Virus record (IMG/VR): IMGVR_UViG_3300028914_000059
Location: 96,001-160,000 of that record
Direction: 5' to 3' (one strand)
Source of the DNA: a virus
Lineage: Duplodnaviria > Caudoviricetes
DNA length: 64,000 bases
In this document: piece after piece, positions 18,264 to 23,375 of the stretch
Layout of the letters: each line of letters begins with the position of its first letter
Numbering within the stretch: the first letter of the stretch is position 1
Made by a program: the position numbers and the translations under genes
Notes under the pieces: generated by a model
Told to the model about the DNA's origin: nothing
The model's database searches: none
What the model saw: only the letters and a program-made list of their open reading frames with translations

Positions 18264-18821
18264 ATGTTGATTGGACTGTGTGGATATGCCAGATCCGGGA
18301 AAGATACTGTGGCATCCATGATGCCTGGGTTTCTTCATCATTCTTTTGCTGCAAAGCTTAAAGAGGAAGTGTCCACTATGTTGAATTCTGTTGGTATAGA
18401 AGCTAATTTTAATAACGAAGATACAAAAGTAGCCCTTAGGCCATTTCTTGTGTTCTGGGGCGCATTTAAACGTAAAGAAATACCGCTTTACTGGGTGAAC
18501 GGAATGCAGACTCACCTTACACCACATGAAGATCACGTCATTACTGATGTCAGATATCTCAATGAAGCTCAGTGGATAAAGGAACATGACGGTGAAGTCT
18601 GGTATATAGACAGACCTGGGATCGGTCCTGCCAATGACGAAGAAGCAAAGAGCTTTGCTGAAATCTTCAGGGAATGTGCTGTAGGCCATAATATATTTGA
18701 CAGAGTTATCCATAATAGAGCAGATCTGGAATATCTGAAGGGTGTTGTAAAGATGGAAACGGAACTTGCCAAAGGACATGAGCGCAGAAGACTGGACCCC
18801 GAATATCGTGTAGATTTTTAA
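18264..18821 (+). CDS. Deoxynucleoside monophosphate kinase
   Basis: P-loop IGLCGYARSGKDT, SFAAKLK, ITDVRYLNEA; GGAGG RBS. Confidence 0.9.
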   Translation: MLIGLCGYARSGKDTVASMMPGFLHHSFAAKLKEEVSTMLNSVGIEANFNNEDTKVALRPFLVFWGAFKRKEIPLYWVNGMQTHLTPHEDHVITDVRYLNEAQWIKEHDGEVWYIDRPGIGPANDEEAKSFAEIFRECAVGHNIFDRVIHNRADLEYLKGVVKMETELAKGHERRRLDPEYRVDF

Positions 18822-18829
18822 CGAACCCG

Positions 18830-18858
18830 TTGAATCATCATATAAATGATGGTATAAT
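18830..18858 (+). promoter_or_regulatory. Sigma70-type promoter of the tRNA/ncRNA operon
   Basis: TTGAAT-N17-TATAAT; spacer is itself an inverted repeat (CATCAT...ATGATG). Confidence 0.75.
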
Positions 18859-18865
18859 ATATTTG

Positions 18866-19117
18866 TAAACTTCCGGAACACGACATTAGCTGACGGGCTT
18901 GAAGCGATGTCAGGACCGAACCCATGATATCCTAGGTGACGATTATAATCATGGCAGTAGCTCCTGAAAGAACGGAAGAAACCGGTTGTTTAACGAGAGT
19001 GTCAATCTGCAAAGGCACTATAAACTGCACAGACTCAAGTGAGCCTATTATCGAGGCTTTGCAAAACGGGAGAGCAGAAGGAAGTTTAAATGCAGGTTTC
19101 ACCTTCACCAGAAACCT
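18866..19117 (+). ncRNA. Unidentified structured RNA (operon leader)
   Basis: Closing helix TAAACTTCC/GGAAGTTTA, several internal hairpins, no credible ORF. Confidence 0.5.
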
Positions 19118-19123
19118 CTTAAT

Positions 19124-19197
19124 GGCAGGGTAGCTCAGATGGCTAGAGCACACGGTTCATACCCGTGATGTCGTGAGTTCGATTCTCACCCCTGCCA
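19124..19197 (+). tRNA. tRNA-Met(CAT), elongator type
   Basis: GGCAGGG/CCCTGCC acceptor, CACGG-TT CAT AC-CCGTG, TTCGATT T-loop; no encoded CCA. Confidence 0.9.
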
Positions 19198-19202
19198 TAT
19201 GT

Positions 19203-19415
19203 GTCCTGGCAGCCTAATGGGCAGGCGGCCATAAGCAGTCCACTATTTTTATCCATCCATTTGAAGCTCCATCTATATTGATTAAAACTTTAGTGGATTA
19301 GCAGGAAGATGTCAGTTCGAATCTGACATGCTCCACATCGGGGCTATAGACTAACTGGCAAGTCGTCCTACTTGCGTGCTTATGGTGAAAGCTGGTTCGA
19401 TACCAGTCCAGGACT
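19203..19415 (+). ncRNA. Nested anticodon-less double tRNA-like RNA no. 1
   Basis: Outer acceptor GTCCTGG/CCAGGAC; 10-bp helix GCCATAAGCA/TGCTTATGGT; inner permuted T-arm, acceptor hairpin, D-arm. Confidence 0.75.
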
Positions 19416-19430
19416 TTCTTAATAATTTTC

Positions 19431-19515
19431 GGGTAGGTGCCGGAGTGGTTAATCGGAGCGGACTGTAAATCCGCTGGTCTAACGGTCTACGGTGGTTCGA
19501 ATCCACCCCTGCCCA
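19431..19515 (+). tRNA. tRNA-Tyr(GTA)
   Basis: GGGTAGG/CCTGCCC, GCGGA-CT GTA AA-TCCGC, long variable arm. Confidence 0.92.
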
Positions 19516-19581
19516 TTTGATGGAGGGAAAAGGATACTACAAAGGCTAAGTTTGGAGTATCCTGGAACCTACATCAACAAA

Positions 19582-19729
19582 GAACCAGTAGCTCAAGTGG
19601 ATAGAGTATCCATGGAATCAGGAAGCAACGTGAGTTCGAATCTCACTGTCGTTGGTAACAAAACGACATGGCCAAGCGGCGAGGCACCTGTCGATTGGGA
19701 GGTTCTGGGTTCGAACCCCAGCTGGTTCA
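19582..19729 (+). ncRNA. Nested anticodon-less double tRNA-like RNA no. 2
   Basis: Outer acceptor GAACCAG/CTGGTTC; inner acceptor hairpin TGTCGTT/AACGACA; two D arms and two T arms. Confidence 0.75.
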
Positions 19730-19879
19730 ATGGTTATTTCTGGATGTGTCAAAGTGATACCCCTGTGTTCGATAGGATGCATACATCGGCATGGGTAGTA
19801 TAGCAGAAGACACAGGTTGCTGCAGCAACTACGTAGAGCCATAGTGCTCTTTGGGTAAAACCCACCAGGATAATCACCT

Positions 19880-19963
19880 GGAGGAATGTCCGAGTGGTCG
19901 ATGGTGAGAGTTTGCTAAACTCTTGGATCAAAAGTCCCGCAGGTTCGAATCCTGCTTCCTCCG
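19880..19963 (+). tRNA. tRNA-Ser(GCT)
   Basis: GGAGGAA/TTCCTCC, G73, AGAGT-TT GCT AA-ACTCT, variable arm. Confidence 0.9.
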
Positions 19964-20079
19964 ATGATTATTGTTTGAGCAGTGTGCACTATGACAACAG
20001 CGGCGAAGTGTCAGGCTGAGACGTCAGCATTGTCCCAGTAGCCGGCATGAGTCATACATTGGCTGTTCATGCAATATGA

Positions 20080-20175
20080 GGACGACAGACCGAGTTGGAG
20101 AACGGGGAGGCTATTTAAGCCTCTGCTCATTTGGTAGATGAGCTATAGTGTGGTTCGAATCCACACTGTCGTCCT
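20080..20175 (+). tRNA. Atypical long-variable-arm tRNA, anticodon loop non-canonical
   Basis: GGACGACA/TGTCGTCC acceptor, GAGGC-TATTTAA-GCCTC, 8-bp variable arm, GTGTGG-TTCGAAT-CCACAC. Confidence 0.6.
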
Positions 20176-20462
20176 TGACGGGTACAGCGGTACAGCCTAG
20201 GCCCTACACTAATGGATAAGAGTGCGCACTCTTGAGTGTATTATGGCCGGACGTAGAGTGGTTATCCTTCCCAATGAAAACGTCCCCTTGAGATTTTCGA
20301 CGGTTTGCTGGATGTGCCGGCCAGCATCATTTCCAACGCGGAACCCTGATCAGATTGCGTAAGTACGAAATGCGTTCACACAGAAAGAACACCGTTGGCT
20401 GGGTGTATGAGGTAGCGGTTGGCGCTACGTCTCGTGCCCAGCCTTCCTGCCCTGCAGGGATT

Positions 20463-20518
20463 AGACCTCCACGCGGGAGCTTAAGCCTTGTAAGCACCGT
20501 ACCATGTGGAGGCCGCTA
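20463..20518 (+). repeat. Conserved RNA hairpin, copy 1
   Basis: AGACCTCCACGCGGGA-stem-AGCCTTG-stem-CCGTACCATGTGGAGGCCGCTA; second copy at 21934. Confidence 0.75.
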
Positions 20519-20519
20519 T

Positions 20520-20603
20520 GGGGCGGTAGTTGTAATGGTAGAACGTGCAGATAGATAATTCCGCGGTTGTCTGCAAGGTCGTGGTTCGATTCCACGTCGC
20601 CCA
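20520..20603 (+). ncRNA. tRNA-like RNA with extended anticodon arm
   Basis: D and T arms normal; 9-bp TGCAGATAG/TTGTCTGCA stem with 12-nt loop. Confidence 0.7.
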
Positions 20604-20625
20604 TTTTCTGAAAAGGAGAATTACT

Positions 20626-21255
20626 ATGCCTAAACTTTGTGCAAAAATTGGCGGAGAAACATATAAGTTTGGTTTTAACGGGGGGGTACTTCAAGAAAAA
20701 ACTTTAAACCAAACTGTAAATGATGAAGCCACTGCTTACTTTATAGAGGCTTATAAGGTAACTAGTCATAATCCATGGCAAGCCATGAGTTATACTATAG
20801 CAAAAGATTTAAAGTATAATTGTCCTTGTAAATGTTACTTTAATGACTCAATGCTTATATGGACAGCTGGATGGAACAGAGACTTCTTTATTAGTGATAA
20901 AAATGTAAGCAATACGGTGAGCGAATATAGAGTCTATATAAAAATACCGAAGTTTATTGAAAACTGGGGGAGGCCTGATGCTGACACCTCTTTTATGCTT
21001 AGTGAAATATACTCCAGATGTGACAGGAATATAATATGTTCAACAGATGGTGATCCCATGCATGAGTTAGATATAGGTGATGATCATATAGCTAGAAGCT
21101 TACTGACAGACTGGACTAATTATATATTTGATGGTGACAGGGATTATTACATAGCATTTGTGATAGAGTTAGATACTACTCACTCCAACATTCACCTGTT
21201 TGTACCATCTTTTAAAGCGACATTTTACAGATATACAGGAAACTATATAGCATAA
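20626..21255 (+). CDS. Hypothetical protein, tandem paralogue A
   Basis: AAGGAG RBS, MPKLCAKIGGETYK...; highly similar to 21281..21886. Confidence 0.8.
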   Translation: MPKLCAKIGGETYKFGFNGGVLQEKTLNQTVNDEATAYFIEAYKVTSHNPWQAMSYTIAKDLKYNCPCKCYFNDSMLIWTAGWNRDFFISDKNVSNTVSEYRVYIKIPKFIENWGRPDADTSFMLSEIYSRCDRNIICSTDGDPMHELDIGDDHIARSLLTDWTNYIFDGDRDYYIAFVIELDTTHSNIHLFVPSFKATFYRYTGNYIA

Positions 21256-21280
21256 TCTATATAAAGGTAGGAGAATTACT

Positions 21281-21886
21281 GTGCCTAAACTTTGTGCAAA
21301 AATTGGTGGAGAAACATATAAGCTTGATTTTAACAGTGGGGTACTTCAGGAAAAAACTTTAAACCCAACTGTAAATGATGAAGCCACTGCTTACTTTATA
21401 AGGGCTTGGGGGGCGACTACTGGTCGGACTGTAGCAGAAGATTTAAAGTATAATTGTCCTTGTAAATGTTACTTTAATGACTCAATGCTTATATGGACAG
21501 CTGGATGGAACCAAAACTTCTTTATTAGTAATAAAAAGGTAAGCGATACGGCGCTAAAATATGAAGTTTGGATAAAAATACCTAAGTTTATTGAAAACTG
21601 GGGGAAACCTGATGATAGCACCTCTTTCATGTTTAGTGGAATATATTCCAGATATAATAGGAATATAATATGTTCAACAGATGGTGACCCTTTGCATGAG
21701 CTAGACATGGGTGATGACCATATAGAGAGAAGCTTAATGATAGACTGGACTAATTTTTTTGATGGAGACCATGATTATTACATACTATTCAGAGTAGAGT
21801 TAGATGGCACTCACTCCAACATTTACCTGTTTGTGCCATCTTTTAAAGTGACCTTTTATAGATATACAGGAACCTATCTAGCATAA
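21281..21886 (+). CDS. Hypothetical protein, tandem paralogue B
   Basis: GTG start with the same GGAGAATTACT context; same 3' flank GCATAATCTATATAAAGGTAGGAG. Confidence 0.8.
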   Translation: MPKLCAKIGGETYKLDFNSGVLQEKTLNPTVNDEATAYFIRAWGATTGRTVAEDLKYNCPCKCYFNDSMLIWTAGWNQNFFISNKKVSDTALKYEVWIKIPKFIENWGKPDDSTSFMFSGIYSRYNRNIICSTDGDPLHELDMGDDHIERSLMIDWTNFFDGDHDYYILFRVELDGTHSNIYLFVPSFKVTFYRYTGTYLA

Positions 21887-21933
21887 TCTATATAAAGGTA
21901 GGAGTTCAGCCTTGGAAATAAAGACTGCCAATC

Positions 21934-21986
21934 AGACCTCCACGCGGGAATCCAGCCTTGGGATCCGTACCATGTGGAGGCCGCTA
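21934..21986 (+). repeat. Conserved RNA hairpin, copy 2
   Basis: Same as 20463..20518 with compensatory inner stem ATCC/GGAT. Confidence 0.75.
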
Positions 21987-22141
21987 AATTAAAAGTGCCA
22001 AACGGGAAAGGCACTCTAAACATGGACACATCAACCATGGACCCGGTACCGGGTCCCAATGAAGCACCGCCAGAAATGGCTACGGCACTGGTTACAAAGC
22101 CGTAGTACCTGCCTCTCGAGCGCATGAGACAGGAACAAACT

Positions 22142-22292
22142 GAAGTAGAGGTAGGCTGGTAGCCCAGCTGGTTAAGGCACCCGGAGGAAAGTTAGCGGGG
22201 GATTATATTCCGTCACGCATTAGCTTTCTGCAAGGGAGATCAGGGGTTCGAGTCCCTTCCAGGCGACAAGACCGAAAGGTCCCCTCTACTTC
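22142..22292 (+). ncRNA. tRNA-like domain with extended anticodon arm enclosed in an outer helix
   Basis: GAAGTAGAGG/CCTCTACTTC closing helix, D arm, T arm AGGGG-TTCGAGT-CCCTT, GACC-GAAA-GGTC tetraloop. Confidence 0.65.
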
Positions 22293-22298
22293 TCTTTA

Positions 22299-22371
22299 GC
22301 CCCAATCGTCTAATATAATAGGATAACCGGCTTCTAGCCGGAGATGCGGTGAGAGTCCGCAAGGGGCGCCA
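22299..22371 (+). tRNA. tRNA-Arg(TCT), divergent or pseudo
   Basis: CCGG-CT TCT AG-CCGG, ends CCA; acceptor has two A:A mismatches, T-loop TGAGAGT, D-loop lacks GG. Confidence 0.55.
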
Positions 22372-22372
22372 A

Positions 22373-22466
22373 GACGATTTATCCGAATTGGAAATAGGGG
22401 GAGGCTGTGAGCCTCCGGATATATGTTAATGTATATCCTGTGGTGGTTCGATTCCACCAGTCGTCA
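22373..22466 (+). tRNA. Atypical long-variable-arm tRNA with GTG anticodon
   Basis: GACGATT/AGTCGTC, A73, GGAGG-CT GTG AG-CCTCC, long variable arm, no G-1. Confidence 0.6.
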
Positions 22467-22470
22467 ATCT

Positions 22471-22541
22471 GGGTCGGTAACCAAGCGGTTAGGTGCTGCT
22501 CTGCAAAAGCAGCTAGATCAGTTCGACTCTGATCCGGCCCT
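22471..22541 (+). tRNA. tRNA-Cys(GCA)
   Basis: GGGTCGG/CCGGCCC, U73, CTGCT-CT GCA AA-AGCAG. Confidence 0.9.
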
Positions 22542-22598
22542 CTCATTTATTCATGAGATAAAATTTCTTTTCGTTGGCCAGCGCTGGCCAACATTTTT

Positions 22599-22760
22599 GA
22601 CTGCCTCGTCTAACGGATAAGACACAGGATGGGTTACGTAAAGGGTCATTTCTATCTCCTTAGTTTGATCTCAGAGTCTCATTCCTTCCTTTCATTAACG
22701 GTGTTTTTAGTCAAGTCAAGTTGCTCCGCCTGAATGCCGGTTCGAATCCGGCGGCAGTCT
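22599..22760 (+). ncRNA. tRNA scaffold with about 100-nt insert replacing the anticodon loop
   Basis: Perfect acceptor GACTGCC/GGCAGTC, D stem GTCT/AGAC, T arm GCCGG-TTCGAAT-CCGGC, CAGG/CCTG stem enclosing 22629-22728. Confidence 0.8.
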
Positions 22761-22895
22761 CTGGAGCCCGTATGAAATATGATGGGTTACCAATAAGGCA
22801 TGCTTCCGCCTGTAATGGGGCAGAGTATGTTTTAATTCGATGTCCTCCTTTTAAAAATTGTCATCGAGCATGCTGGGAAACTGGTATGCTCTTAC

Positions 22896-22979
22896 GCCCG
22901 GTTGGCGAAACTGGCAGACGCATATGATTCAGGTTCATATGTCCGCAAGGACGTGCGGGTTCGACCCCCGTGCCGGGTA
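22896..22979 (+). tRNA. tRNA-Leu(CAG)
   Basis: GCCCGGT/GCCGGGT, A73, TATGA-TT CAG GT-TCATA, variable arm GTCC-GCAA-GGAC. Confidence 0.9.
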
Positions 22980-23096
22980 CTGTTGTTTGTAGTAATCATT
23001 AAAAAACTCTATGCCTTGGTGCAGCTGTAATATTTTATTGCCGCTGCACTTTTTTTATCTGTACATTTACGCTATAATATTAAAGAGGAGAGCACT

Positions 23097-23375
23097 ATGA
23101 GCAGAAGTTATAAGAAGACATCATACAGTGGTGATACTAATGATAAGGCTTATAAGAAGGTTTCTAATAAAAGGATTCGCAGTTACCCGGAAATTCCGGA
23201 TGGCTCGTTCTTTAAGAAGATAATGTGCTCCTGGTTCATTAAAGACTACTGCTCATATATGACTGAGAAGGAGTTTATGGAGGATTGGTATGATCCTGAG
23301 TCGTACATGAGGAAGTTGTGGCCAACCTATGAAGAAGCCCACCAGAACTATATGAAATATTACAGGAGAAAATGA
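23097..23375 (+). CDS. Conserved-type basic hypothetical protein (MSRSYKK...)
   Basis: 92 aa, GAGGAG RBS. Confidence 0.75.
   Translation: MSRSYKKTSYSGDTNDKAYKKVSNKRIRSYPEIPDGSFFKKIMCSWFIKDYCSYMTEKEFMEDWYDPESYMRKLWPTYEEAHQNYMKYYRRK

What the first reader, a model, noticed from the sequence alone, without database searches (positions are those of the whole stretch)
19203..19415. tRNA inside a tRNA (no. 1): permuted Ala-like tRNA and a guide loop replace the anticodon
Seen: read linearly these look like two broken tRNAs, but the halves pair crosswise. The outer body is GTCCTGG(19203)/CCAGGAC(19408) with D arm GCCT/AGGC, T arm GCTGG-TTCGATA-CCAGT and a 10-bp 'anticodon' helix GCCATAAGCA(19228)/TGCTTATGGT(19377). 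Inside is a hairpin TCCACTA/TAGTGGA with a 45-nt loop complementary to an RBS+ATG. Then comes a circularly permuted tRNA: T arm GTCAG-TTCGAAT-CTGAC, acceptor ATGCTCC-A / loop / GGGGCTA with G3:U70 and A73, D arm GACT/AGTC, closed by AGCAGGA/TCCTACT. Established: G3:U70 is the AlaRS determinant, and T-arm / closed acceptor / D-arm order is the topology of YrlA-class bacterial Y RNAs. Inference: a two-elbow, anticodon-less RNA acting as decoy for tRNA-targeting defence, EF-Tu/ribosome/Ro-binding scaffold, or protected antisense carrier. Caveat: inner pairs 6:67 and 7:66 are mismatched.
Basis: partly seen in the sequence, partly recalled or inferred. Interest (0 to 1): 0.9.

Follow-up and report, generated by a model that had tools for sequence, protein, structure and literature searches.

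The report
Two-headed tRNA-like RNA in phage
A 213-base gene in a rumen phage's tRNA cluster encodes a conserved RNA built from two tRNA bodies joined through their anticodon stems, which probably acts as a non-decoding tRNA look-alike; I found this design in no RNA library or paper I searched.

Summary
Window 19203-19415 folds as an outer tRNA shell whose anticodon arm is a 10-bp helix. That helix leads to a hairpin with a 45-nt loop and to a circularly permuted tRNA body.

- **Not an artefact:** 96-98% identical copies occur in contigs from 19 other samples.
- **Conservation:** its tRNA-like parts are about as conserved as the neighbouring tRNA-Met. The big loop and the CAUC linker vary about five-fold more.
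- **Covariation:** element no. 1 is too conserved to show double compensatory changes. A sibling in the same window (19582-19729) has the same crossed topology, and 15 of its 39 pairs carry double changes. Relatives hold a third family.
the RNA is not anticodon-less in sequence. The inner body is a complete permuted tRNA-Ala(UGC), opened between positions 38 and 39. The outer body keeps GCA in anticodon register. Both triplets are buried in the junction, so normal decoding is unlikely.
- **The "guide loop":** it has no target in the phage genome.
- **Family membership:** it is not a YrlA Y RNA, a tmRNA or an archaeal-type permuted tRNA.

Best reading: a stable, non-decoding two-elbow tRNA mimic or decoy; that function is inferred, not shown. 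Earlier reports in this scan describe the same architecture in other large phages.

The parts
18830..18858 (+). Promoter-like site (TTGAAT, 17-nt spacer, TG-TATAAT) between the dNMP kinase gene and the tRNA cluster. Likely start of the cluster transcript.
   Evidence: A consensus match only (10 of 12 positions).
19203..19209 (+). Outer acceptor stem, 5' strand (GUCCUGG). It starts 5 nt after tRNA-Met, in an ordinary tRNA slot.
   Evidence: Pair probability 0.67-1.0. Invariant in 7 variants.
19212..19226 (+). Outer D arm (GCCU / AAUGGGC / AGGC).
   Evidence: Invariant. Pair probability only 0.29.
19228..19237 (+). 5' strand of the 10-bp helix: 5 bp of outer anticodon stem plus 5 bp that use the outer anticodon-loop bases.
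   Evidence: probability 0.5-1.0. The A>G change at 19237 keeps the pair as G.U.
19233..19239 (+). Outer anticodon-loop remnant AAGCAGU, with GCA at positions 34-36 but A33 in place of U33. It is paired in cis with UGCUU (19377-81).
   Evidence: Read directly. The un-interrupted outer sequence is not called a tRNA by ARAGORN.
19239..19297 (+). 7-bp hairpin (UCCACUA/UAGUGGA) closing a 45-nt A/U-rich loop (19246-19290) with an invariant CUCCAUC core.
   Evidence: stem probability about 0.9. 9 of 45 loop positions vary among 7 genomes. No target in the phage genome.
19300..19306 (+). Inner closing stem, 5'-proximal strand (AGCAGGA). Bases 19302-06 correspond to positions 39-43 of the permuted tRNA-Ala.
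   Evidence: 6 of 7 pairs with 19366-72. The A>G change at 19303 keeps the pair. Pair probability is low, 0.06-0.18.
19311..19327 (+). Inner T arm (GUCAG / UUCGAAU / CUGAC).
   Evidence: Probability 0.81. One U:A to U.G change in L036.
19328..19335 (+). Inner acceptor 3' strand (AUGCUCC) plus discriminator A73.
   Evidence: Invariant. Five pairs at probability 0.97.
19336..19339 (+). Linker CAUC joining the inner 3' and 5' acceptor strands. The variants seen are CAUC, UAUC, CACC and CACU.
   Evidence: 2 of its 4 positions vary among the 7 genomes, and a third in L025.
19340..19346 (+). Inner acceptor 5' strand GGGGCUA: G1:C72, G2:C71, G3.U70, G4:C69, C5:G68, with 6:67 and 7:66 mismatched.
19349..19364 (+). 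Inner D arm (GACU / AACUGGCA / AGUC).
   Evidence: The stem is invariant and two loop positions vary. Pair probability 0.17.
19366..19377 (+). Inner anticodon-stem 5' strand UCCUA followed by the 7-nt anticodon-loop sequence CUUGCGU (U33, UGC, G37).
   Evidence: Joining 19340-77 to 19302-35 gives a 72-nt cloverleaf that ARAGORN calls tRNA-Ala(tgc). ARAGORN is permissive, as one search shows.
19377..19386 (+). 3' strand of the 10-bp helix (UGCUUAUGGU).
19391..19415 (+). Outer T arm (GCUGG / UUCGAUA / CCAGU), outer acceptor 3' strand CCAGGAC and discriminator U. No CCA is encoded.
   Evidence: Invariant.
19582..19729 (+). Sibling two-headed RNA (no. 2) with the same crossed topology and unrelated sequence. 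It supplies the covariation evidence for the architecture.
   Evidence: 15 of 39 pairs carry changes on both sides, 98.7% of cells are paired, and 0 of 500 shuffles reach this.

Best explanation
The gene makes one stable RNA of about 213 nt. It is transcribed with the phage tRNA cluster and cut out of the precursor like its tRNA neighbours, by RNase P at G19203 with 3' trimming and CCA addition after U19415.

The RNA folds into two tRNA "top halves", each with an acceptor stem, T arm and D arm:
- The outer one has ordinary free ends.
- The inner one is a circularly permuted tRNA-Ala(UGC) whose acceptor is closed by a 4-nt linker.
- The two are joined tail to tail through their anticodon stems at a three-way junction.
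- That junction also carries a hairpin with a 45-nt loop.

Both anticodon triplets are locked in the junction. GCA is paired in cis, and UGC sits between helices. The RNA therefore cannot present an anticodon stem-loop to the ribosome.

It most likely works as a tRNA mimic. It would offer two elbow-plus-acceptor surfaces, one carrying the full alanine identity set, to proteins that recognise tRNA shape. I think the likeliest such proteins are host tRNA-targeting defence nucleases or toxins, for which it would be a bait that cannot be cleaved and cannot decode.

Shown: the fold, its conservation, and the recurrence of the design. Inferred: the processing, the binding partners and the decoy role.
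For: **Fold**
- The minimum-free-energy structure and pair probabilities support the crosswise helices.

**Reality of the sequence**
- Copies 96-98% identical occur in contigs from 19 other samples, made with different assemblers.

**Purifying selection among 7 genomes**
- The adjacent kinase gene varies at 56% of third codon positions, and the upstream leader at 23% of positions.
- tRNA-Met varies at 2.6%.
- In no. 1, paired positions vary at 4 of 112 and D/T loops and junctions at 2 of 52.
- The big loop varies at 9 of 45 and the linker at 2 of 4. Fisher p = 1.5e-4.
- All three substitutions that fall in standard pairs keep the pair, as A:U to G.U or U:A to U.G.

**Recurrence of the architecture**
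- No. 2 (19582-19729) has 15 of 39 pairs with compensatory double changes. These include 3 in the outer acceptor and 6 of 7 in the inner closed acceptor.
- A third family lies at L013:7268-7429.

**tRNA ancestry of the inner body**
- Un-permuted, it is a 72-nt tRNA-Ala(tgc) cloverleaf with G3.U70 and A73.

**Context**
- It occupies a tRNA slot 5 nt after tRNA-Met, on the tRNA strand.
- The cluster differs between near-identical phages, which is the pattern expected of an arms-race locus.
- A closed 7-bp acceptor of this topology is cut by RNase P and gains CCA in M. smegmatis YrlA (PMC4201824).
Against:
- No. 1 itself has no double compensatory change, because it is too conserved.
- The inner closing stem and both D arms are weak thermodynamically and compete with a 6-bp alternative hairpin.
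- No binding partner is known and the host is unidentified.
- A decoy is a stoichiometric inhibitor, which is an inefficient way to block an enzyme.
- The big loop varies less than synonymous sites (20% against 56%) and has an invariant CUCCAUC core, so it may have a role that a pure body-mimic model ignores.
- The inner acceptor has only 5 contiguous pairs. In PMC4201824 only the 7-bp YrlA acceptor was cleaved by RNase P.
Confidence: 0.45

Rival explanations
1. A chargeable two-piece RNA. RNase P and 3' processing open the CAUC linker and CCA is added at A19335. AlaRS then alanylates the inner head, and the outer head may also be charged. The function would depend on the attached amino acid: sequestering AlaRS or EF-Tu, baiting toxins that modify aminoacyl-tRNA or CCA ends, or donating alanine to a non-ribosomal transferase.
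For: - The full alanine identity set (G1:C72, G2:C71, G3.U70, G4:C69, A73) is invariant.
- The linker is the most variable part, and in the sibling families it ranges from 8 nt to a 20-22-nt hairpin. That resembles a discarded spacer.
- M. smegmatis YrlA is cleaved and gains CCA at the equivalent site (PMC4201824).
- AlaRS charging of minihelices and tmRNA is established knowledge.
Against: - There are only 5 contiguous acceptor pairs; 6:67 and 7:66 are mismatched in all variants.
- YrlA RNAs with short acceptors were not cleaved.
- The sibling elements carry no consistent identity set. The triplet in no. 2 drifts between GUC, GGC and GAC.
- The phage encodes no CCA-adding enzyme, although the host enzyme would do.
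Confidence: 0.17
2. A natural tRNA scaffold. The two tRNA bodies serve only to stabilise and process the RNA. The active part is the 45-nt loop, whose CUCCAU-containing sequence pairs with the Shine-Dalgarno and AUG region of a host mRNA.
For: - The complement of the loop reads GGAG, a 7-nt spacer, then AUG.
- The CUCCAUC core is invariant, and the loop varies less than synonymous sites.
- Other tRNA-like genes in the cluster carry 13-, ~50- and ~91-nt inserts at the same place.
Against: - The best complement anywhere in the phage genome is 11 nt, below the shuffled median of 12.
- The loop holds 9 of the RNA's 17 variable positions, including an indel between the anti-AUG and anti-SD parts.
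- The sibling two-headed RNAs have no such loop yet keep the two bodies.
- The other inserts share no common motif.
- The host transcriptome could not be searched.
Confidence: 0.12
3. A true permuted tRNA gene. The RNA is cut after U19377 and before C19302, and the ends are sealed by the phage RNA ligase into a circle. RNase P and 3' processing then remove CAUC and release a functional tRNA-Ala(UGC). This would be a bacterial-virus version of the red-alga and archaeal permuted tRNA pathway.
For: - Segments 19340-77 and 19302-35 make exactly a 72-nt tRNA-Ala(UGC) cloverleaf with U33 and G37, and the anticodon matches the acceptor identity.
- The phage has no other tRNA-Ala.
- It encodes an RNA ligase (PHROG 968; Pfam RNA_ligase plus PHA02142 OB-fold).
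Against: - There is no bulge-helix-bulge motif; both putative cut sites lie inside helices.
- No splicing endonuclease is known in bacteria.
- The phage has no RtcB.
- The ligase gene sits in the replication module next to the primase-helicase.
- What remains of the outer RNA would not be a tRNA.
- The sibling elements cannot be un-permuted into a unique tRNA.
- Acceptor pairs 6:67 and 7:66 are mismatched.
Confidence: 0.06
4. An evolutionary relic: a recombinant of two neighbouring tRNA genes (a Cys-like one and tRNA-Ala) that exchanged 3' halves. It is transcribed but has no function of its own.
For: - Both bodies are opened at the same position, 38/39, as a half-swap would give.
- The outer body has non-tRNA features (C8, A33) and is not called a tRNA when closed.
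- tRNA clusters in these phages are recombination hot spots.
Against: - The tRNA-like parts are as conserved as a working tRNA, while flanks and spacers vary 6- to 20-fold more.
- The crossed topology is maintained by compensatory changes in the sibling family.
- Three unrelated sequences share the design.
- No. 1 is present in every contig that carries this cassette.
Confidence: 0.07
5. A YrlA-type Y RNA that recruits the host Ro60 (Rsr) and its exonuclease partner.
For: - The inner module has the T-arm / closed acceptor / D-arm order of the YrlA tRNA-like domain.
- YrlA searches discarded anything overlapping tandem tRNA genes, so such elements would have been missed.
Against: - There is no Rfam YrlA match even at E <= 10.
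- The phage has no TROVE gene.
- No GNCGAA motif occurs in the RNA.
- The Ro-binding stem is replaced by a second tRNA body.
Confidence: 0.04

Closest known systems
YrlA, the tRNA-like Y RNA of bacteria and mycobacteriophages (Rfam RF02553; Chen et al. 2014, PMC4201824)
   Same: - The tRNA-like domain is in the permuted order T arm, closed acceptor stem-loop, D arm.
- It is a non-decoding RNA.
- One member is cut by RNase P and receives CCA.
- Members are also found in phages.
   Different: - YrlA has one tRNA-like domain on a Ro60-binding stem with a GNCGAA motif, and lies within 4 kb of a Ro60 gene.
- Here the stem leads to a second complete tRNA top half.
- There is no motif, no Ro60 gene and no model match.
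Circularly permuted tRNA genes of Cyanidioschyzon merolae and some archaea (reviewed in PMC3978253)
   Same: - The 3' half is encoded upstream of the 5' half, joined by a short linker.
- The inner body is a complete tRNA when un-permuted.
   Different: - Those genes stand alone and are flanked by a bulge-helix-bulge motif.
- They are matured by the splicing endonuclease and a ligase through a circular intermediate.
- Here the permuted body is embedded in another tRNA, has no such motif and lies in a bacterial virus.
Two-piece (permuted) tmRNA of alpha-proteobacteria, cyanobacteria and some phages
   Same: - A permuted gene order with a G3.U70 alanine acceptor and T arm.
- A real phage example turned up in my pattern search (L007/L009).
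   Different: - ARAGORN and Rfam make no tmRNA call.
- The phage has no SmpB.
- There are no pseudoknots.
- The only open frame in the loop ends in LVD rather than a degradation tag.
- The sibling RNAs have no coding loop.
T4 species 1 and species 2 RNAs (rnaC, rnaD)
   Same: - They are stable non-tRNA RNAs encoded inside a phage tRNA cluster, near the dNMP kinase gene.
- rnaC has a tRNA-like T arm and paired ends.
- I know of no assigned function for them; the T4 record calls them only small, stable RNAs.
   Different: They have a single T arm, no second tRNA body, no permuted module and no sequence similarity. The R1 model hits only the T4 tRNAs.
Engineered circularly permuted "nicked tRNA" mimic (PMC10159003) and engineered tRNA scaffolds for recombinant RNA (the latter from my own knowledge)
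   Same: - A closed acceptor with an open anticodon end imitates a tRNA cut by an anticodon nuclease.
- A tRNA body used as a carrier for an inserted RNA in the anticodon position.
   Different: Those are laboratory constructs. Here the design is natural, conserved, and carries a whole second tRNA body.

Membership tests
YrlA / bacterial Y RNA (RF02553) | Match to the Rfam/Infernal YrlA model | tested here: not met
   cmscan of 18800-23200 against all 4227 Rfam families at E <= 10 lists no YrlA hit.
YrlA / bacterial Y RNA (RF02553) | Encoded within about 4 kb of a Ro60 (TROVE) gene on the same strand | tested here: not met
   PF05731 has no match in the 180-kb phage record at E <= 1, and the control genomes do respond. 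The host genome is unknown.
YrlA / bacterial Y RNA (RF02553) | GNCGAAN0-1G motif near the 5' end (Rsr recognition) | tested here: not met
   The only CGAA in 19203-19415 lies in the T loop, preceded by GUU.
YrlA / bacterial Y RNA (RF02553) | tRNA-like domain ordered T arm, closed acceptor, D arm | tested here: met
   19311-27, 19328-46 and 19349-64.
Canonical tRNA (RF00005) | Contiguous cloverleaf with a 7-nt anticodon loop, recognised by tRNA models | tested here: not met
   - ARAGORN makes no call for 19203-19415, with or without introns allowed.
- Rfam gives no tRNA hit for it at E <= 10.
- The linear halves are not called either.
Permuted tRNA genes (red alga / archaea type) | 3' half upstream of 5' half, giving a complete tRNA when un-permuted | tested here: met
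   19340-77 joined to 19302-35 is called tRNA-Ala(tgc), 72 nt. Caveat: ARAGORN accepts many junctions.
Permuted tRNA genes (red alga / archaea type) | Bulge-helix-bulge motif at the processing sites | tested here: not met
   The required cut sites, 19301/02 and 19377/78, lie inside the inner stem and the 10-bp helix. There are no two 3-nt bulges separated by 4 bp.
Permuted tRNA genes (red alga / archaea type) | Splicing endonuclease plus RtcB-type ligase available | tested here: inconclusive
   The phage has no RtcB but does encode a different RNA ligase. The host is unknown. The class II tRNA-Tyr in the cluster points to a bacterial host.
tmRNA (RF00023), including permuted forms | Recognised by tmRNA models | tested here: not met
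   ARAGORN run with tmRNA detection finds none. RF00023 has no match at E <= 10 in the whole phage.
tmRNA (RF00023), including permuted forms | Alanine acceptor with G3.U70 and a T arm | tested here: met
tmRNA (RF00023), including permuted forms | Tag reading frame with a proteolysis-type C-terminus; SmpB partner | tested here: not met
   The frame from GCU 19266 to UAG 19299 ends in LVD (read). The phage has no SmpB, though the host would have one.
tRNA gene with a group I intron | Intron of 200 nt or more with a group I core in the anticodon loop | tested here: not met
   The insert is 142 nt and is made of a hairpin plus a tRNA body. No intron family matches at E <= 10.

The most novel reading that the evidence does not exclude
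The inner body is a working permuted tRNA-Ala(UGC) gene. The transcript would be cut at the 38/39 junctions and circularised by the phage's own RNA ligase. RNase P and 3' processing would then open it into a normal tRNA-Ala. That would be the first split or permuted tRNA maturation pathway in the bacterial world, with the outer tRNA body acting as the processing handle.
Probability: 0.06. Interest if true: 0.95.

Novelty: new variant of a known kind. Interest (0 to 1): 0.7.

Why it matters
Phage tRNA clusters are usually read as lists of tRNAs plus pseudogenes. In this cluster of thirteen tRNA-shaped genes:
- two are conserved two-bodied RNAs that cannot decode;
- three more carry inserts in place of the anticodon loop.

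If these are decoys or chargeable mimics, they would add RNA-based tools to the phage-host conflict over tRNA, alongside the known tRNA-cleaving and tRNA-modifying defences.

They also show that the permuted tRNA-like topology of Y RNAs exists outside the Ro60 system. Published YrlA searches discarded hits that overlapped tandem tRNA genes, which may explain why this design has gone unreported.

The exact fit of the inner body to tRNA-Ala(UGC) gives clear experiments: RNase P cleavage, CCA addition, AlaRS charging and a search for circular-junction reads.

Tried and rejected
**Similarity and homologue searches**
- Megablast of the cluster against 50,697 phage records found no match.
- A pattern for a permuted Ala acceptor in IMG/VR gave 5 hits. 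None is alike: tandem tRNA-Ala genes, att-type fragments and a real permuted tmRNA.
- A pattern for the no. 2/no. 3 family in IMG/VR found nothing.
- An exact 34-mer of no. 1 in 185,579 species genomes found nothing, so no host clue.
- Relatives sought through the 1066-aa neighbouring protein: none.
- Kinase relatives at 35-46% identity have no tRNA cluster next to them.

**Expression**

**Covariance model**
- Model R1, built from the no. 2 family, finds no. 3 but not no. 1.
- It finds no two-headed RNA in T4, XacN1, Salmonella phage Arash, Vibrio phage D69, phiKZ, RSL2, 201phi2-1 or phiPsa267.
- The two long hits, in XacN1 and Arash, are ordinary adjacent tRNAs.
- I therefore could not reproduce the earlier notes that cultured phages carry the design.

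**Phage gene content**
- No TROVE, RtcB, CCA-adding enzyme, Rnl1, SmpB or tmRNA in the phage.

**Other tests**
- Un-permuting the inner bodies of no. 2 and no. 3 at every possible junction was uninformative. ARAGORN accepts hundreds of junctions with many different anticodons.
- I rejected an intron-containing tRNA reading for the outer body of no. 1. No split of the flanking bases gives a 7-nt loop with U33.
- The 37-aa antisense ORF called over tRNA-Met and the 5' part of no. 1 in all related contigs looks spurious. The three changes in the part of it that I examined (19247, 19252, 19253) alter the protein.
- The orphan 209-aa protein inside the cluster has homologues only in this clade and gave no functional lead.
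Full report
**Setting**

The window is bases 96001-160000 of a 180,070-bp IMG/VR phage record, estimated 93% complete.
- Its large terminase is only about 30% identical to that of any cultured phage. The nearest are Salmonella phage Arash and Vibrio phages D69, D181 and D148.
- The names of the samples holding close relatives look like cattle-rumen metagenome studies. That reading is my inference from the names.
- The tRNA-Tyr in the cluster has a long variable arm, which is a bacterial trait.

All 15 canonical T arms of the genome lie on the + strand, and 14 of them fall between 19173 and 22955. This cluster starts about 300 nt downstream of a dNMP kinase gene, with a promoter-like site at 18830-58 in between.
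- ARAGORN and Rfam call only ordinary-looking tRNAs there: Met, Tyr, Ser, Cys, Leu, plus two odd long-armed ones.
- The remaining T arms belong to five unusual elements. Two are two-headed RNAs: no. 1, the subject here, and no. 2 at 19582-19729.
- The other three are tRNA bodies with 13-, ~50- and ~91-nt inserts in place of the anticodon loop.

**The observation**

- RNAfold gives -73.1 kcal/mol, z = -3.5, with none of 200 shuffles as stable.
- The ensemble strongly supports the crosswise features. Pair probabilities are 0.67-1.0 for the outer acceptor and 0.54-1.0 for the 10-bp helix.
- They are about 0.9 for the hairpin, 0.97 for the five inner acceptor pairs, and 0.8-1.0 for both T arms.
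- The inner closing stem and both D arms are weak (0.06-0.29). They compete with an alternative 6-bp hairpin.
- Enforcing the full tRNA-like fold costs 3.5 kcal/mol. D arms are often under-predicted because they depend on tertiary contacts, so I rate these helices as plausible by homology but not shown.
- Neither linear half folds as a tRNA or is called one.

**Not an artefact, and under selection**

I used the kinase protein cluster to fetch contigs from 19 other samples, built with several assemblers. All carry no. 1 at 96-98% identity, directly after tRNA-Met.

Variability among seven genomes:

| Region | Variable positions |
|---|---|
| Kinase gene, third codon positions | 56% |
| Leader upstream of the cluster | 23% |
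| tRNA-Met | 2.6% |
| No. 1, paired positions | 4 of 112 |
| No. 1, D/T loops and junctions | 2 of 52 |
| No. 1, 45-nt loop | 9 of 45 |
| No. 1, CAUC linker | 2 of 4 |

- The contrast between loop plus linker and the rest of no. 1 gives Fisher p = 1.5e-4.
- The three substitutions that fall in standard pairs all keep the pair. A fourth lies at the 7:66 mismatch.
There is too little divergence.
- No intermediate relatives exist in the protein collection. Kinase identity drops from 82% to 46%.

**The architecture recurs**

No. 2 has the same crossed topology with unrelated sequence.
- In six variants, 98.7% of cells pair and 15 of 39 pairs carry double changes.
- These include 3 pairs in the outer acceptor and 6 of 7 in the inner closed acceptor.
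- None of 500 shuffles, and no slid register, comes close.
- Caveat: most of the double changes come from one divergent copy, the L036 paralogue.

In several sibling phages no. 2 is replaced by a third family (L013:7268-7429). Its inner acceptor is closed by a 20-22-nt hairpin that differs completely between two variants. A covariance model built from no. 2 finds this family at 89 bits but does not find no. 1.

One phage with the same kinase protein carries eight ordinary tRNAs at this position instead (L023). The cluster therefore behaves as an exchangeable cassette.

Numbering the inner body as a tRNA gives the following:
- 19340-77 is exactly positions 1-38. That covers the acceptor, U8 A9, the D arm, the anticodon-stem strand UCCUA and the loop CUUGCGU, with U33, UGC and G37.
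- 19302-35 is exactly positions 39-73.
- Joined, they form a 72-nt cloverleaf that ARAGORN calls tRNA-Ala(tgc).
- UGC is an alanine anticodon, matching the G3.U70 and A73 identity of the acceptor. The acceptor 5' strand is that of ordinary tRNA-Ala genes (compare L008).
- By my estimate the register, U33, purine 37 and an Ala anticodon would coincide by chance about once in a hundred. ARAGORN alone is too permissive to prove the point.

The outer body likewise has seven bases, AAGCAGU, after its anticodon-stem strand.
- GCA sits at positions 34-36 and the discriminator is U. Both are cysteine-like marks.
- However, it has A33 and C8 and is not called a tRNA when closed, so this part is weak.

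Both bodies are thus opened at position 38/39, as if two tRNA genes had exchanged 3' halves.
- In the fold, GCA is paired in cis with UGC 19377-79. This supplies the extra 5 bp of the 10-bp helix.
- The inner UGC lies between helices at the three-way junction.
- The anticodon sequences are therefore present but not presented as a stem-loop.

**The "guide loop"**

- The best complementary stretch anywhere in the phage genome is 11 nt, and shuffled loops give a median of 12.
- The loop holds more than half of the RNA's variable positions, including an indel between the two motifs.
- It keeps an invariant CUCCAUC core and varies less than synonymous sites, so some role cannot be excluded. The host transcriptome could not be examined.
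- Gene callers place a 37-aa antisense ORF across tRNA-Met and this loop. I consider it spurious.

**Comparison with known families**

- *YrlA.* It shares the permuted tRNA-like topology. One YrlA with a 7-bp acceptor is cut by RNase P and gains CCA (PMC4201824). The defining features fail here: no Rfam match at E <= 10, no Ro60 gene in the phage, and no GNCGAA motif.
- *tmRNA.* It shares the alanine acceptor and permutation only.
- *Archaeal and algal permuted tRNAs.* These need a bulge-helix-bulge motif, which is absent.
- *T4 rnaC and rnaD.* These are a precedent for non-tRNA stable RNAs in a phage tRNA cluster, but they have a single T arm.
- *Literature.* Six full-text searches found no description of a tRNA nested in a tRNA in phages.
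- *Earlier reports in this scan.* They describe the same architecture in other large phages. I treat those as leads. My own search of eight cultured phages with model R1 found none.

**Mechanism**

I commit to a stable, non-decoding, two-elbow tRNA mimic (0.45). It would be excised like a tRNA and display two elbow-plus-acceptor surfaces. It most likely acts as a bait for tRNA-recognising proteins that can be neither cleaved nor used in decoding.

The variable cassette context fits an arms-race role.
- Whether the CAUC linker is opened and the inner head alanylated is open (0.17 as a separate reading).
- The phage encodes an RNA ligase at genome 4652-5809. With the exact tRNA-Ala fit, this keeps a true permuted-gene pathway alive at low odds (0.06).
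- The scaffolded-antisense, relic and Y RNA readings get 0.12, 0.07 and 0.04.

All functional statements are inferences. Only the fold, its conservation and its recurrence are shown.

Noticed in passing
window 19582-19729: Second two-headed tRNA-like RNA (no. 2) with strong covariation. With introns allowed, ARAGORN reads it as tRNA-Asp(GUC) with a 74-nt intron. The middle base of that triplet changes to G or A in close relatives, giving GGC or GAC.
   Followed up: yes
L013:7268-7429; L036:4105-4268; L038:7276-7436: Third two-headed family. It replaces no. 2 in sibling phages. Its inner acceptor is closed by a 20-22-nt hairpin whose sequence is completely different between variants.
   Followed up: partly
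window 20520-20604, 22142-22270, 22599-22761: Three tRNA bodies with intact acceptor and T arms, carrying 13-, ~50- and ~91-nt inserts in place of the 7-nt anticodon loop. Relatives carry other versions with 20- to 85-nt inserts.
   Followed up: partly
window 20082-20174 and 22373-22466: Two paralogous tRNAs with long variable arms. One has a His anticodon (GUG) and the other a 9-nt loop containing UUU. Both folds are very stable (z = -3.7 and -4.7).
   Followed up: partly
window about 20455-20520 and 21925-21990: Two copies of a roughly 60-nt element with a long-range CCUCCAC...GUGGAGG pairing. They flank a pair of paralogous orphan genes (20626-21255, 21281-21886) whose homologues occur only in this phage clade.
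   Followed up: partly
L028:4652-5809 (genome 4652-5809): Phage RNA ligase (PHROG 968; Pfam PHA02142 OB-fold plus RNA_ligase). It lies next to an AEP-primase/MCM-helicase fusion and a PD-(D/E)XK nuclease.
   Followed up: partly
L023:6861-12558: A sibling phage with the same kinase protein has a conventional eight-tRNA cluster. Downstream of it, in place of the unnamed short ORFs called at that position in the sibling loci, lie a HAD-family hydrolase gene and three genes that look like polyamine synthesis (decarboxylase, spermidine synthase-like, saccharopine dehydrogenase-like).
   Followed up: no
L007:6984-7012 and L009:9149-9177: A circularly permuted, two-piece tmRNA gene in two IMG/VR phage contigs. 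Its tag ends in ...YELAA.
   Followed up: no
window 18859-19122: A roughly 265-nt non-coding leader between the promoter-like site and the first tRNA. It is 23% variable among relatives, and its content was not examined.
   Followed up: no
window 19143-19256 (- strand): A 37-aa ORF antisense to tRNA-Met and the 5' part of no. 1. Gene finders call it in every related contig, but it is probably spurious.
   Followed up: partly
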